64,000 bases of DNA from Rhynchobatus australiae (lineage: Eukaryota), in assembly GCA_034780895.1 (NCBI GenBank), contig JAUZTB010000075.1, positions 20,438,664 to 20,502,663 on the forward strand, written 5' to 3'. Below, piece after piece: positions 36,001-45,000 of this stretch (position 1 is the stretch's first letter; every line of letters begins with the position of its first letter). The position numbers are program-made.

Positions 36001-39000
36001 AATATTCTCTATTTATTATGGAGAAGGACATTTTAGTTGGAGAATTTAGGCATGACTGAAATTCCAGAAAGAAAAACATTGCATGTATTTTTTAAGGTAT
36101 CAGATGCCTTTACAGTCTTAAAGGAATTTAATTCAAGGCCTGAAGGGATGTATTCTAGGCCACTATGGGAATAAAGAGAGGATTTTGTTTGGAGTCACAT
36201 TTTTAAAAATAAATTCTGACCCCAGATGATGAGTCAGGCGATTAGGGGCAGCAAATGTCATGCGTTTAAGGCAAGTAACTACAGGCTGATGAGTCTCATC
36301 AAAATGGTAGGGGTTATTGGAAAACATCTTGAGGGGCGGGAATAACCTGCACTTGAAGGGGCAGGGATTAAACGATATTACATTGCCTATCCCTCATCAG
36401 AGGAGAAAATACCTGACTTATTTGATGGAATTTTACAAAGGCACAATTAAATGTGTGAAAAAGGGTAGTATGGTTGATGGAGACAACATGGTTTGCAAGG
36501 CCTTTCATCAGGTACCACGTAAGATTCTGGTCCAAAATGTAAGAGTGAACAGAGCTGGATAAAATTGGCAAATCAGATCCAAAGGTGACTTGCTGATAAT
36601 AGGCAAACGATTCTGGTAGAGGGTTCTTTCTGCAGTTGGAGGCCTGTGACCCCTGCTGTCTTTAAATAAACATGAACGATCTGGATGCTGATGTAGAAGG
36701 TACGATTAGCAAACCCAGACAACCTGAGGATTGGTGCTGGTGAGGTTGGTCAAGAGGGTAGACTTTGACTACAGCACACTCTGGATCAATTGGTAAATTA
36801 GACAGAGCAGCAGCAAATGGAATTTAATGCTAAAAATGCGTGGAACCTAGAGATTCTGAGAGGACTAATAAGGCTAGGAGATGAACAACAAGTGGCAGGA
36901 CTGTAGGAATAGAAGGACTTGCCCCAAGACTCCCGAGGACAGCAGCACAGAGAGATCACTTGGGATAAAATGGTATGCAGGACACNNNNNNNNNNNNNNN
37001 NNNNNNNNNNNNNNNNNNNNNNNNNNNNNNNNNNNNNNNNNNNNNNNNNNNNNNNNNNNNNNNNNNNNNNNNNNNNNNNNNNNNNGGGGGGACGGGGGTG
37101 GGGGGGGGGTTCGCTCGCAACCACGGTAGACACAGCTGGAGTAGCCTGTGCTGTTGTGTCTTCTACAGTAAGGAAGGAATTTCAGTGGAGCAGAGCAGAG
37201 GAAAAAGTTGCCCGAAATGCAGCATTTCAGCTATGAGGAGGACCAGGATAAAATCGGTCTGTTCTCCCTGGAGCCATAAAGCTGATGAGTGACCTGATGG
37301 AGCTGGGCAACATTGTGAGGGGAAGAGATGTGGTAGATGCTGGGAAACATTTCACATTAGCAGGTGTCATTAACCACAAGCTATCATTTTAAGATAAAAT
37401 ACAGCAAATTTATAGGAGATTGTTCTCACCCAGATGGGCTTGAAATATGGAAAACACTGTCTGACGGAATCATGCGGGTGGGGACTCTCACAATGTTTGT
37501 TTCATTGAGCACTTGAACCACCACAACATGGAAGATGACAGGCAGAGTGCTGGGAAATTGGACGAGTATCGGAAGCGTACTAGATGGCCGACAAGAACGC
37601 AATCGGCCAAAGTACCTGCTTTTGAGATGTATGGTTACGCTTCTATGACTTCTGGCTTCCTTTCTGCTTATCCAGTCTCGAGAAAGAGCTGATGCAACCT
37701 GTTTTACTTCTGCTGGCCGTGGACTATATCCTTCAGAGAGCCTGTAACAGCAGCAGAACCCCCATCTCGATGTGCCACATTGTTCTGTGCGAAGACAAGT
37801 AATCTTACTGGAAATTTCATTCAATTTTGTTAACTTTACTTCCCAAGAAATCACCCTCCTGAAACATACACCTGCTATAAACTACATTCACAACTTTGAG
37901 AAAGTTCCTTGTCTCTAGATTTCAAACTGAAGATTGTAACATCTTAGACCACACTGATGATACTAAACCACTGCACTTCAAGAGAGGATAATTCCACTAA
38001 ATCACTGAATGAAATTTTAACTAATTAGCAAAACCAATAGCATCCAGAATCTAACCTTGATTTTTATTTTAGCCTAGCCTGTTCCCTCATCCTTTANNNN
38101 NNNNNNTCTGGACTGAACCCTGCAGGAACGTTCAGCTGTTTCTTATTGTTGCCATGTACCTAAATGGGAACTGCATAAAGACAGCCCCAATCTGCTGTCA
38201 GACATGACCCTCATGCCTCATTTCTACACCAGACCGCTCCCCGGGCATACGCCATGGCTACCTCAATAAAGCTGTTTTGAAGACTCTCTGCCTGTTTCAG
38301 ATGAAGACCTGACCTGACCTGAAAGAGCCCAGAGCGAGAGTATATCCATCAGGCTGTGCAGCGGGATAGGCAATAGGAGAATGATGCAGCAGAGGGTTTG
38401 CCCCACTCTCTCACATTCTGGAACTCACCACAGATGCTGTATTTTACAATTCGGATTCCTCAGAGCCTCTGAGAGGGATTTTAGTCCCGAATCTTGCAGC
38501 TCATTGCCACTCAGGGACAGCTCTGTCAGCGAGCAGTTTATATTGAGGGCTGAGGTGAGATCCTCAGCACAAGAAGCTGTGAGTCCATTACTATCCAGCC
38601 TAGAGATTGAACAGGACAATGAAAAGGTGAGAGGGTACAAAGGAGAGAGACAGAGAACATGATTTCTTACATCATGGTATTTACCACAGTTTCTGTATTT
38701 TACAGTCCGGGTTCGTCAGGGCCGCAGTCACCAGTTTCATTCCTGAATCTCCCAGTTCATTCTTCCTCAGGCTAAACACAAACAGAGATCGAGTCACTTC
38801 ATGGATCTAGTGTAATTTATCTCGCCTGCCATGCAGTCTCAGACAAATTAGAACAAGATTTTCCTGCCACTGACCGCGAATCTCACTTGCCATATCCCAA
38901 TGATATATTTCGCAAGTACAGATAAGGGTAGGCTCACACATTGAATTTTAGGGCTCTGGGGAATACCATAGAACAAAAACACCTTCATGTACAAACCCAA

Positions 39001-42000: not shown

Positions 42001-45000
42001 ATTCCCCAAGTAATTAAGAAATATTTGAATCTCAGGAGCAAGAGCTTTTTACCTCTCACAAATGGTAATTGAGCAAAAATTGCTTACCTCCATTGGAGGT
42101 ACATAACACTAAGACAAAGAGAAAATAAGTGTTCTTGTGGACAGTGGATAAGTGGAGCGCTGGGGATCAGATTGGCTCAATTCTCACCACAATTGGTTTG
42201 CTTGTGCTACGTGGTCTTCAGCAGATCCAGAAGTTACAAATATTTTTTTCCAATTCCACCATACTTTGATGAATCTAATCTCTTCATTTTTGTGCCACAT
42301 ATTCACCAGTTTGACTGAAAAACCGAATTCCTACCAACTGGTGAAATAGCTAAACAATAAATGTGTCCCACAGAATCACTTGGGCCTATTTACTATTGTA
42401 ATGGCTCTAAAATGAACCTGAATGTAAGGGGTATTAGAGTTATACAACGCAGAAACAGACCCTTCGGCCCAAATCGTCCTTGCTAACCAAGGTGCCTTCT
42501 TGAACTCGTCCCATTTTCCTGCGTTTGGTCCATATCCCTCTAAACCTTCCCTATTGACACACTTGTCCAAATGTCTTTTAACGTTCTAATTTAACCCAGC
42601 ACAACACATTCCGTATTCCCACCACCATCTTGCTTGGAGGGAGTAATGTTCAACTCTTAAGCGGAAGTCCCTAACGACACATCCACTCTGAAAGTTGCCT
42701 CTTCCTTGCTTAACTGCAGGATTAATGTTCTGTTAGGCAAGTATCATTTCATCGTCTCAAAACAAGTAATCTGACACGGGCTAACACAATTTGTCCTACA
42801 AATTCACAACCCAGCGTTACACACCAACCCATTCCTCCTGATAGGAGGATTTTCACGGCATGCAGAAACACACAGTTTGGTCAGGACAGGGACTTGGCGA
42901 GAATGCAATCTCAGTATAAAAGCAACAGACCTGTAAAAAAGTTGCTGCTTTTCGTGTCTGCTCAGAATGGTTCATCAGAGCACATCTATTTACAGGTTTC
43001 GCACCGCGCCGCGAGCCGGCCAGGTGTGCGGGGCTCCGTAGAGAGTGTATGGGGGTTTCAAAGTGTGTCGGGACCCTGCCAGGTGCTTCGGGGGGTTTCT
43101 GCAGTGTATCAGCACGGTGCCAGTTCTGAGAAACGTTTCACAATGTACACAGGCCTGCCAGNNNNNNNNNNNNNNNNNNNNNNNNNNNNNNNNNNNNNNN
43201 NNNNNNNNNNNNNNNNNNNNNNNNNNNNNNNNNNNNNNNNNNNNNNNNNNNNNNNNNNNNNCACCACAATTGGTTTGCTTGTGCTATGTGGTCTTCTGCA
43301 GATCCAGAAGTTACAAATATTTTTTCCAATTCTACCATACTTTGATGAATCTGATCTCTTAATTTTTGTGCCACATATTCACCAGTTTGAATGAAAAACC
43401 AAATTCCTACCAACTGGTGAAATAGCTAAACAATAAATGTGTCCCACAGAATCACTTGGGCCTATTTACTGTGATACACATCTGGAAAAAGAAAACTTCA
43501 ATTGTTTGTTGTAATGGCTCTAAAATGAACCTGAATGGAAGGGGTATTAGAGTTAAACAACGCAGAAACAGACCCTTCAGCCCAAATCGTCCTTGCCAAC
43601 CAAGGTGCCTTGCTGAACTAGTCCTATTTGCCTGCGTTTGGTCCATATCCCTCTAAACCTTTGCCACACTTGTCCAAATGTCTTTTAATGTTCTAATTAA
43701 ACCCAGCACCAACACATTCCATATTCCCACCACCATCTTGCTTGGAGGGAGTAATGTTCAACTCTTAAGCGGAAGTCCCTAATGACACATCCATTCTGAA
43801 TGTTGCCTCTTCCTTGCTTAACTGCAGGATTAATGTTCTGTTAGGCAAGTATCATTTCATTGTCTCAAAACAAGTAATCTGACACGGGCTAACACAATTT
43901 GTCCTACAAATTCACAACCCAGCGTTGCACACCAACCCATTCCTCCTGATAGGAGGATTTTCACGGCATGCAGAAACACATAGTTTGGTCAGGACAGGGA
44001 CTTGGCGAGAATGCAATCTCAGTATAAAAGCAACAGACCTGTAAAAAGTTGCTGCTTTTTGTGTCTGCTCAGAATGGTTCATCAGAGCACATCTGTTTAC
44101 AGGTTTCACACCGCGCCGCGAGCCGGCCAGGTGTGCGGGGCTCTGTAGAGAGTGTATGGGGGTTTCACAGTGTGTCGAGACCCTGCCAGGTGCTTCGGGG
44201 GGGTTTCTGCAGTGTATCAGCACGGTGCCAGTTCTGAGAAACGTTTCACAATGTACACAGGCCTGCCAGATATGTCAAGGGATTTCAAACCGTCAGGCCC
44301 GGCCAGGTCTGTGATGGGCTTTACGGTGTGTCAGGGCCCTGCCAGCGGTGTATGGAGTTTCACAGTACGTTAGGTCCCAGCCTGGTCCGTGAGGAATTTC
44401 AGTATATTTGGATCCTGGATTTGGATCATGTGGATTCACCATGCATCCGGATGTTGACAGAGGTTTGGAGGATTTCAGTGCATATGGAAGTTCACATCAC
44501 GTAGTGGGACCTGTACAGGTGTGCATGAAGTTTCACAGTGCATCAGCAACCTGCCAGGTCCGTAGCCGAATCAATTAAACTAACACGTGAAATGATACCA
44601 AAATATTTGCAGGGTAGATGAGAAATTGGATGCATTCTCTTGACGGCTCACAGGTTGATTGTGATTGACAATGAATTCCAAGAGAACGCCATCATGTTCC
44701 CATTGGGAATTGGCCTTCTAATTCCCAGATTCTGCCAACCTCTGAACAAATGCTTGTTAAAGTTTTAGATTCCAAGAAGTTATTGTGTGAAATCTGCATT
44801 TCATTTCTTACCTTTCAATTGAGTGGGTAATTCAAATGAAGTTCGAGCCACGCTCATGTTTGCCAATTGATCAGAACCTGTTTAAATCAGTAAGTCAGGA
44901 AACCAAATCAACTAACATTATCATAAAATCTGACGTTTTAATCTGTTTTTACTTTCCCATACCGTGTTCCTGGATTTCTTTCAGTATTCTGTCCAGCTTT

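What the first reader, a model, noticed from the sequence alone, without database searches (positions are those of the whole stretch)
38685..44877. NLR-type gene with intact CARD-like and LRR exons but no NACHT exon
Seen: ATG exon, two CARD-like exons, linker, then LRR exons, all open with canonical splice sites. No Walker A/NACHT ORF lies in the ~6 kb between the linker (44812) and the first LRR exon (38771), and both gaps there have overlapping flanks, implying little missing DNA. The linker ends in phase 1 and the LRR starts in phase 2, so direct splicing frameshifts. Inference: a CARD-only decoy (cf. mammalian COP/POP regulators), a recent deletion pseudogene, or a mis-scaffold of paralogues.
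[Added by the scan's program, not by the reader: the finding's places include an assembly gap (unread letters, written N; its length is only estimated) at 39375 to 39474, 43162 to 43261. Whether the letters on both sides are continuous or in frame is not known: test that first.]
Basis: partly seen in the sequence, partly recalled or inferred. Interest (0 to 1): 0.65.

Follow-up and report, generated by a model that had tools for sequence, protein, structure and literature searches.

The report
NLR gene missing its NACHT exon
A ray or shark immune-receptor gene in a patchy draft assembly has every exon except the large central NACHT exon; this is either an assembly loss or a young broken copy, both ordinary in this gene family.

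Summary
On the minus strand lie the exons of a CARD-like/NACHT/LRR gene: E1 52453-52256, E2 45134-44963, E3 44877-44812, then E5-E9 from 38771 to 33187. All are open with canonical splice sites. The ~1.7 kb NACHT/WH/HD2 exon is absent from all 64 kb. E3 ends in phase 1 and E5 needs two bases, so a direct splice gives Ala then TGA.

The closest relative is a full-length, NACHT-bearing Pristis pectinata protein (P0003). It is the best match to each of the 7 exons it covers.

The gene body is a mosaic of two copies about 4% apart. Five of its 9 gaps, including both gaps in the finding, are flanked by dovetailing duplicates. One contig (39475-43161) bridges E3's intron to E5 without NACHT.

I cannot separate a false exon loss (about 0.45) from a young deletion in one copy (about 0.40) without reads. 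LRR exons of the two copies differ with pN/pS 0.31, which argues against an old loss. A designed CARD-only decoy is the least supported reading. NACHT-less models of this family are already annotated in other rays. Interest is low.

The parts
52256..52453 (-). E1: ATG plus the N-terminal half of the CARD-like domain (66 aa), donor GT, ends in phase 0
   Evidence: tblastn 58-69% identity to P0004/P0005/P0006; HMM positions 15-73, iE 5e-20
44963..45134 (-). E2: C-terminal half of the CARD-like domain (57 codons plus 1 base), ends in phase 1
   Evidence: 81-82% identity to P0003
44812..44877 (-). E3: linker exon (G-SDQLANMSVARTSFELPTQLK plus 1 base), ends in phase 1
   Evidence: 86% identity to P0003 residues 77-98
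43262..44269 (.). Low-coordinate end of contig 43262-46629 (intron after E3); one copy of the dovetail duplicate at gap 43162-43261
   Evidence: 33 mismatches, 6 indel events in 1016 columns
42185..43161 (.). High-coordinate end of bridging contig 39475-43161: second copy of the intron-3 segment (95.6-96.2%)
40064..42184 (.). Unique middle of the bridging contig, where the NACHT exon should lie: no NLR coding remnant, and no other copy in the window
39475..40063 (.). Low-coordinate end of the bridging contig: copy of the 0.6 kb just upstream of E5 (95.5%)
38781..39374 (.). High-coordinate end of contig 38107-39374: the other copy of the segment upstream of E5
38685..38771 (-). E5: first (half) LRR exon, 1+84+2 nt, so it needs 2 bases from the exon before it
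   Evidence: 96-97% identity to P0003 674-702
38429..38599 (-). E6: LRR exon, 171 nt
   Evidence: Pfam LRR_6 26.1 bits, cut-off 23.4; 95% identity to P0003
35301..35471 (-). E7: LRR exon, copy 1
   Evidence: 91% identity to P0003
34803..34973 (-). E7': second copy of E7 across gap 35132-35231 (7 differences in 171 nt: 5 synonymous, 2 not)
33934..34101 (-). E8: LRR exon, copy 1
   Evidence: 93% identity to P0003
33695..33768 (-). E9: last exon, copy 1, cut by gap 33595-33694
33437..33594 (-). E8': second copy of E8, its 5' end cut by the gap
33187..33274 (-). E9': second copy of the last exon, ends ...RPGLRVTV-TGA

Best explanation
This is the counterpart of an ordinary CARD-like/NACHT/LRR receptor gene of the family that is greatly expanded in rays and sharks. 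Its closest relative is the Pristis pectinata 'NLRP3-like isoform X2' (P0003, 900 aa), which has a complete NACHT/WH/HD2 block. In this draft scaffold the gene body was put together from contigs of two copies about 4% apart, either uncollapsed haplotypes or very recent paralogues. That produced false tandem duplicates at five gaps. The single big exon is not in the chosen path.

I think the most likely reason is a false exon loss made by the assembly. The exon would sit in an unplaced or collapsed contig, or in the copy that was not chosen for that stretch. In that case the real gene works as a normal NLR: the LRRs sense, the NACHT oligomerises, and the CARD recruits a partner.

Shown: the exon map, the phases, the absence from the window, the mosaic structure and the orthology. 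Inferred: the cause of the absence.
For: (1) P0003 is the best match to all 7 exons it covers, well ahead of the next best among the 188 fetched relatives (E6 95% against 70%, E7 91% against 64%, E8 93% against 77%). It carries NACHT 198-369, NOD2_WH and NLRC4_HD2.
(2) The phases (E3 ends in phase 1, E5 needs 2 bases) are exactly what a lost exon 4 would leave. The junction residues fit P0003 (...PTQLK|D... and ...ELG|LRKNELG).
(3) All 8 remaining exons are open with AG/GT sites.
(4) The two copies differ in E7-E9 by 8 synonymous and 7 non-synonymous changes. That gives pN/pS 0.31, with binomial P=0.023 against neutrality. Selection on the LRR exons is not expected if translation stopped at the second codon of E5.
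(5) The locus is the worst assembled part of the window. Nine gaps lie in the gene span, and 5 of them have flush duplicates with 3.4-4.8% transition-rich mismatches. None of the 13 gaps outside the gene span has this, apart from one 85% receptor-paralogue pair.
(6) A gap between duplicated pairs on one scaffold is a listed hallmark of false haplotype duplication. [quoted passage not shown] Missing exons are among the commonest false losses in older assemblies, where 26-60% of genes are affected by some type of false loss (PMC9516821, passages read).
Against: Contig 39475-43161 is continuous sequence. It overlaps the intron after E3 at one end and the 0.6 kb before E5 at the other, and it has no NACHT. 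Unless that contig is chimeric, at least one copy in the genome really lacks the exon.

I could not show that its 2.1 kb middle is repetitive. It has no other copy in the window by tblastx or blastn and no Pfam hit even at E<=10, so I have no positive sign of a mis-join.

The exon cannot simply be hiding in either N run if the flanks truly overlap.

NACHT-less CARD-like/LRR models exist in other rays' annotations: 11 of the 188 relatives fetched, some on contigs of several Mb. Real truncated copies are therefore common in this family.
Confidence: 0.45

Rival explanations
1. A real, young deletion. One of the two copies (an allele or a very recent paralogue, represented by contig 39475-43161) has lost the whole NACHT exon cleanly and is a new pseudogene or truncated copy. 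The scaffold threads that copy between pieces of the other copy, whose state at this point is unseen.
For: The bridging contig joins the E3-intron sequence to the sequence just before E5 with 2.1 kb in between and no NLR remnant. Its middle shows no sign of being a repeat. Truncated family members without NACHT are annotated in Hemitrygon akajei and Leucoraja erinacea. Short CARD-like-only models make up 12 of the 39 relatives found with E1. Intact flanking exons are compatible with a recent event.
Against: pN/pS of 0.31 in the LRR exons of both copies argues against an old loss or a loss shared by both copies. The Pristis counterpart is intact. The N-free stretch may itself be a product of gap closing in a locus where the assembler clearly struggled. 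No reads were available to check.
Confidence: 0.4
2. A functional CARD-only regulator. The NACHT-less copy is expressed, E3 splices to E5, and the message ends after about 146 residues (CARD-like domain, linker, Ala, stop). The product caps or competes with the CARD of its parent NLR, as primate COPs do with caspase-1.
For: A direct splice gives G+CC=Ala then TGA. The domain of a close relative folds as a CARD and matches ICEBERG among many other CARDs. Short CARD-like-only proteins are annotated in several rays, and tandem-CARD proteins P0007/P0008 exist.
Against: There is no transcript evidence. The stop would lie upstream of four more exon junctions, which from general knowledge would usually trigger nonsense-mediated decay. 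The LRR exons downstream are intact and look selected, which a CARD-only product would not need. Many of the short models run on into intron-like sequence after the linker, as truncated predictions do.
Confidence: 0.07
3. The CARD part and the LRR part come from different, older paralogous loci that were scaffolded together by mistake.
For: The family is large and the scaffold is stitched across many gaps. E1 is tied to the rest only by gaps without overlap (46630, 50226), and its best matches are several different Pristis paralogues at 74-84%.
Against: E2, E3 and E5-E9 all match the same Pristis protein best, by wide margins. E3's contig and E5's contig are chained through dovetail overlaps. 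The exon order, strand and phases are those of one gene.
Confidence: 0.05

Closest known systems
Elasmobranch-expanded NLR family annotated in RefSeq as 'NACHT, LRR and PYD domains-containing protein 3/12-like' or 'NLRC3-like' (closest: Pristis pectinata P0003; also Hemitrygon akajei P0004/P0005 and Heptranchias perlo P0006)
   Same: Same exon order and phases. E2 is 82% identical to P0003, E3 86%, E5 96%, E6 95%, E7 91%, E8 93% and E9 88%. The LRR exons have the same 57-residue period and the protein has the same C-terminal tail.
   Different: The window has nothing for P0003 residues 99-673 (NACHT, winged helix, HD2). The family's N-terminal domain folds as a CARD, not a PYD, whatever the RefSeq names say.
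NACHT-less models of the same family in other rays (for example Hemitrygon akajei 'NLR family member X1-like' P0051/P0076, 'uncharacterized protein' P0062/P0144/P0013, and Leucoraja erinacea P0163)
   Same: A CARD-like domain followed by LRR exons with no NACHT core.
   Different: Those models stay in frame. They do so through a retained tail of the big exon (P0051, P0076, P0163, P0013) or through a short odd bridging exon (P0062, P0144). Here no such bridge was found and E3-E5 is out of frame.
CARD-only proteins of primates (COP/CARD16, INCA/CARD17, ICEBERG/CARD18)
   Same: Short proteins made of one CARD that arose by partial duplication of a CARD-bearing gene. ICEBERG (1dgn) is among the fold matches. 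Background comes from titles and abstracts only, as listed (PMC3775265, PMC7555848).
   Different: Those derive from caspase-1 and are proven, expressed regulators. Here the parent would be an NLR, the truncation may be an artefact, and expression is unknown.
False haplotype ('heterotype') duplications and false exon losses in draft vertebrate assemblies (PMC9516828, PMC9516821)
   Same: Duplicated pairs separated by a gap on one scaffold, in a divergent region, hitting a nucleotide-binding gene family and disturbing the exon content of the gene (passages read).
   Different: The other diagnostic features (half read depth, discordant pairs, haplotype k-mers) could not be checked here. About 4% divergence is high for alleles.

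Membership tests
NLR (NACHT-LRR receptor) | NACHT NTPase domain with a Walker A loop | tested here: not met
   Absent from the whole window: Pfam on 109 ORFs, tblastn with 4 full-length relatives, family HMM on 3005 ORFs, motif scan. This describes the assembled sequence, not necessarily the real gene.
NLR (NACHT-LRR receptor) | C-terminal ribonuclease-inhibitor-type leucine-rich repeats | tested here: met
   LRR_6 at 26.1 bits, cut-off 23.4. HMM positions 730-898 are covered by E5-E9.
NLR (NACHT-LRR receptor) | Orthology or close kinship to a full-length NLR across all other exons | tested here: met
   P0003 is the best hit to 7 of 7 shared exons. P0003 has NACHT, NOD2_WH and NLRC4_HD2.
CARD (death-fold) domain | Sequence match to the CARD profile | tested here: inconclusive
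   E1 and E2 searched singly, and a relative's whole domain, gave no Pfam CARD hit even at E<=10. No PDB CARD was found by sequence or by profile. Two family members hit CARD: P0008 at 30.3 bits (cut-off 23.9) and P0007 at 23.4 bits.
CARD (death-fold) domain | Six-helix death fold closest to solved CARDs | tested here: met
   Tested on a relative, not on the window's joined exons. P0004 residues 1-138 were folded with a 36-row alignment: pLDDT 85, pTM 0.80. Top Foldseek matches are the ARC CARD (prob 1.00, TM 0.74-0.80 by target), the NLRC4 CARD (0.77-0.82), and the NOD1, CARD8, caspase-1 and Apaf-1 CARDs. E-values are only 0.3-5. The window's E1 and E2 are 59% and 73% identical to that stretch.
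CARD-only regulator (COP/ICEBERG type) | A message whose reading frame ends just after the CARD | tested here: inconclusive
   An E3-E5 splice would give Ala-stop. No transcript data were available and the arrangement may be an artefact.
CARD-only regulator (COP/ICEBERG type) | Expressed protein that binds and restrains a CARD partner | not testable with these tools
   Needs RNA and protein work.
False haplotype duplication (assembly artefact) | Duplicated pair separated by a gap on the same scaffold | tested here: met
   Five pairs, 397-1016 columns, flush to the N runs at 33595, 35132, 39375, 43162 and 48662. Duplicated E7, E8 and E9 have single counterparts in P0003.
False haplotype duplication (assembly artefact) | Half read depth, discordant pairs, haplotype-specific k-mers | not testable with these tools
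   No reads were available.

The most novel reading that the evidence does not exclude
The NACHT-less arrangement is real and expressed. A ray has turned a copy of an expanded NLR into a CARD-only protein of about 146 residues that restrains its parent receptors. This would be an independent invention of the primate COP/ICEBERG idea, and one of a class hinted at by the many short CARD-like-only and CARD-like/LRR models in other rays.
Probability: 0.06. Interest if true: 0.55.

Novelty: new member of a known kind. Interest (0 to 1): 0.15.

Why it matters
It matters mainly as a caution. A gene scan would count this as a 'NACHT-less NLR', yet the locus is a mosaic of two copies in a gap-ridden draft, and its closest relative is a complete receptor.

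If the deletion is real, it is one more truncated member of a birth-and-death family whose truncated members are already annotated in other rays.

One point has wider use. The N-terminal domain of this elasmobranch family, named 'PYD-containing' by similarity, folds as a CARD that the Pfam CARD profile mostly misses.

Tried and rejected
- Single-sequence fold of the relative's N-terminal domain: pLDDT 67, long helices, and meaningless PDB matches (PI3K p85 coiled coils). I discarded it in favour of the alignment-based model.
- Profile search of alignment A1 against PDB sequences: only a chance match to AcaB.
- Idea that the bridging contig's middle is a LINE fragment and so a likely mis-join point. 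By eye, 40100-40600 resembles a reverse transcriptase. Pfam gave nothing at E<=10, and neither tblastx nor blastn found another copy in the window. I dropped it as evidence.
- A weak tblastn hit of P0005 residues 464-493 at 39052-38984 (E=4.7) and similar hits. I treat them as chance, because the family HMM did not support them.
- Names and sources for the unnamed library hits could not be fetched. Named relatives came instead.
- Not done:
  - Comparison with the Pristis genomic locus. No eukaryote genome collection is on hand and genome contigs holds only bacteria and archaea, so I did not use it.
  - dN/dS against an orthologue, for lack of orthologous DNA.
  - Any search or fold of the joined exons.
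  - The N runs were neither filled nor looked up.
  - Complex prediction and the protein atlas were not used.
- Supplementary file 12 of PMC8455134 (the whale shark NLR list) was not seen and may bear on how common NACHT-less models are.
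Full report
What the window is. The 64 kb is a draft scaffold with 22 runs of N, 13 of them exactly 100 long. Every protein relative found is from rays or sharks. It is therefore elasmobranch DNA and not human. 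I did not fill or look up the N runs.

The gene. Reading the minus strand and running tblastn with four full-length relatives gives one gene:
- E1 52453-52256: ATG and the first half of the N-terminal domain, ending in phase 0.
- E2 45134-44963: second half of that domain, ending in phase 1.
- E3 44877-44812: linker, ending in phase 1.
- Five LRR-region exons, all interrupted after the second codon base: E5 38771-38685, E6 38599-38429, E7 35471-35301, E8 34101-33934 and E9, which ends at the TGA at 33189-33187.
Every exon has an AG acceptor and a GT donor. The codons split across exons agree with the Pristis pectinata protein P0003.

No NACHT anywhere. Four independent checks agree.
- None of 109 ORFs of 40 aa or more on either strand of 38000-46000 hits NACHT in Pfam. 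The only real hit is LRR_6.
- tblastn with four relatives finds nothing with E<1 for the block between the linker and the first LRR exon (P0003 residues 99-673) in the whole window.
- A family HMM built from 11 full-length relatives was run without filters on 3005 six-frame ORFs of 12 aa or more. It matches positions 15-153 and 730-898 and nothing credible in 154-729.
- The single Walker-A-like string in the window sits in a stop-flanked scrap at 54335-54358.
A direct E3-E5 splice reads G+CC (Ala) and then TGA.

What the gene is. The exons were searched one at a time. E2 alone finds four full-length NLRs, the best being P0003. P0003 has NACHT, NOD2_WH, NLRC4_HD2 and LRR_6. The CARD side and the LRR side therefore belong to the same gene lineage, and that lineage has a complete NACHT in Pristis. 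E1 is not covered by P0003, which is an isoform with another first exon. Its best matches are several Pristis paralogues at 74-84%.

The family is very large in rays and sharks:
- 69 clusters at 50% identity carry the E2 domain, and 22 of those 69 have NACHT by Pfam.
- 221 short relatives were found with P0051.
A published whale shark study reports an expanded NLRP-related family. Only 23 of its 43 putative NLRs had a clearly identifiable NACHT (PMC8455134, passages read; its supplementary list was not seen).

Is the N-terminal domain a CARD? By sequence it barely is. Pfam finds no CARD in E1, in E2 or in a relative's whole domain, even at E<=10, and PDB sequence and profile searches find none. 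Two family members with tandem copies do hit CARD (P0008 at 30.3 bits, cut-off 23.9; P0007 at 23.4 bits). By structure it is. Residues 1-138 of the Hemitrygon relative P0004, folded with a 36-row alignment, give pLDDT 85 and pTM 0.80. The best PDB matches are nearly all CARDs: ARC, NLRC4, NOD1, ICEBERG, CARD8, caspase-1 and Apaf-1. Target-normalised TM scores are 0.7-0.8, although the E-values are weak at 0.3-5. This was tested on a relative.

The gaps. I compared each contig end with its neighbour. Dovetail overlaps flush to the N run occur at six of the 22 gaps. One is an 85% pair of receptor paralogues at 31555. The other five (33595, 35132, 39375, 43162, 48662) are 93.8-96.2% identical. 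All five lie inside the gene, which spans nine gaps. The differences are transition-rich substitutions plus a few indels, spread evenly to within 10-77 bp of the overlap ends, and no identical run exceeds 77 bp. These are two biological copies about 4% apart, not sequencing noise.

The duplicates at 33595 and 35132 repeat E7, E8 and E9, and they cut E8 and E9 in mid-exon, whereas P0003 has one of each. They are therefore redundant contig ends and not real tandem exons. A gap between duplicated pairs on one scaffold is a published hallmark of false haplotype duplication. [quoted passage not shown]

The crux. Contig 39475-43161 overlaps the intron after E3 with its high-coordinate end, and the 0.6 kb before E5 with its low-coordinate end. 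Between them lie 2.1 kb with no NLR remnant.
- If that contig is sound, at least one copy really lacks the exon, and neither N run can hide it.
- The state of the other copy between 43262 and 39374 is unseen.
- I looked for a reason to distrust the contig and found none. Its middle has no second copy in the window and no Pfam match. The resemblance to a reverse transcriptase that I saw by eye is unconfirmed.

Against an old or shared loss. The two copies differ in the 402 coding bases they share (E7-E9) by 8 synonymous and 7 non-synonymous changes. That gives pN/pS 0.31, with P=0.023 against neutrality. Exons that followed a stop codon would not be kept this way, unless LRR-only transcripts are used. 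The counts are small.

Base rates pull both ways. Missing exons are among the commonest false losses in older assemblies (PMC9516821). Yet truncated members of this family are also annotated in other rays. Eleven of the 188 fetched relatives have the CARD-like domain and LRRs with under half of the NACHT core, and 12 of the 39 relatives found with E1 are short CARD-like-only models. Both sets were selected by length windows, so they are not frequencies. The in-frame NACHT-less models keep a tail of the big exon or use an odd bridging exon. Nothing of that kind is present here.

Verdict. The finding is a correct observation about an ordinary gene in a poorly assembled, two-copy locus. My probabilities are:
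- about 0.45 for a false exon loss;
- about 0.40 for a young deletion in one copy;
- about 0.07 for an expressed CARD-only product;
- about 0.05 for a chimera of different loci.
None of these makes it a new kind of receptor. Read depth, long reads or one PCR from E3 to E5 would settle it.

Noticed in passing
window 4108-20649, + strand: Five exon-sized ORFs each encode a scavenger receptor cysteine-rich (SRCR) domain (Pfam 42-109 bits). This is a multi-SRCR gene next to the NLR, also broken by gaps.
   Followed up: partly
window 30867-32232, - strand: Rhodopsin-family receptor ORF (7tm_1, 52.7 bits). An 85% identical second partial copy lies across gap 31555-31654 (31216-31554 against 31656-31996). 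They are either two tandem paralogues or another mis-joined pair.
   Followed up: partly
window 49709-49762, - strand (intron 1 of the NLR): The 18-residue alternative first exon of the Pristis isoform P0003 matches here at 78% identity (E 2e-4). An alternative 5' exon may be conserved. It lies just beyond the duplicated flank of gap 48662.
   Followed up: no
relatives P0003-P0006 and alignment A1: The N-terminal domain of this elasmobranch NLR family is missed by the Pfam CARD profile but folds as a CARD. The RefSeq names 'NACHT, LRR and PYD domains-containing' therefore misdescribe it.
   Followed up: yes
relatives P0007 (336 aa) and P0008 (310 aa): Proteins made of two or three tandem copies of the CARD-like domain and nothing else. 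P0007 is a Hemitrygon akajei RefSeq model.
   Followed up: partly
relatives P0051 and P0076 (Hemitrygon akajei 'NLR family member X1-like'): Two paralogues, 84% identical, both keep an open frame from the CARD-like domain through a tail of the big exon into the LRRs, with no NACHT. NACHT-less members may be maintained in stingrays.
   Followed up: partly
window 7326-7695 / 8881-9265 and 22425-23166 / 24038-24804: Two further direct repeat pairs (88.6% and 76.3%) that are not at gaps. They are probably dispersed repeats.
   Followed up: no
window 62001-64000: GC rises to 0.52 against about 0.41 elsewhere, with long open frames on both strands. This may be a CpG-island-like region or the first exon of another gene.
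   Followed up: no
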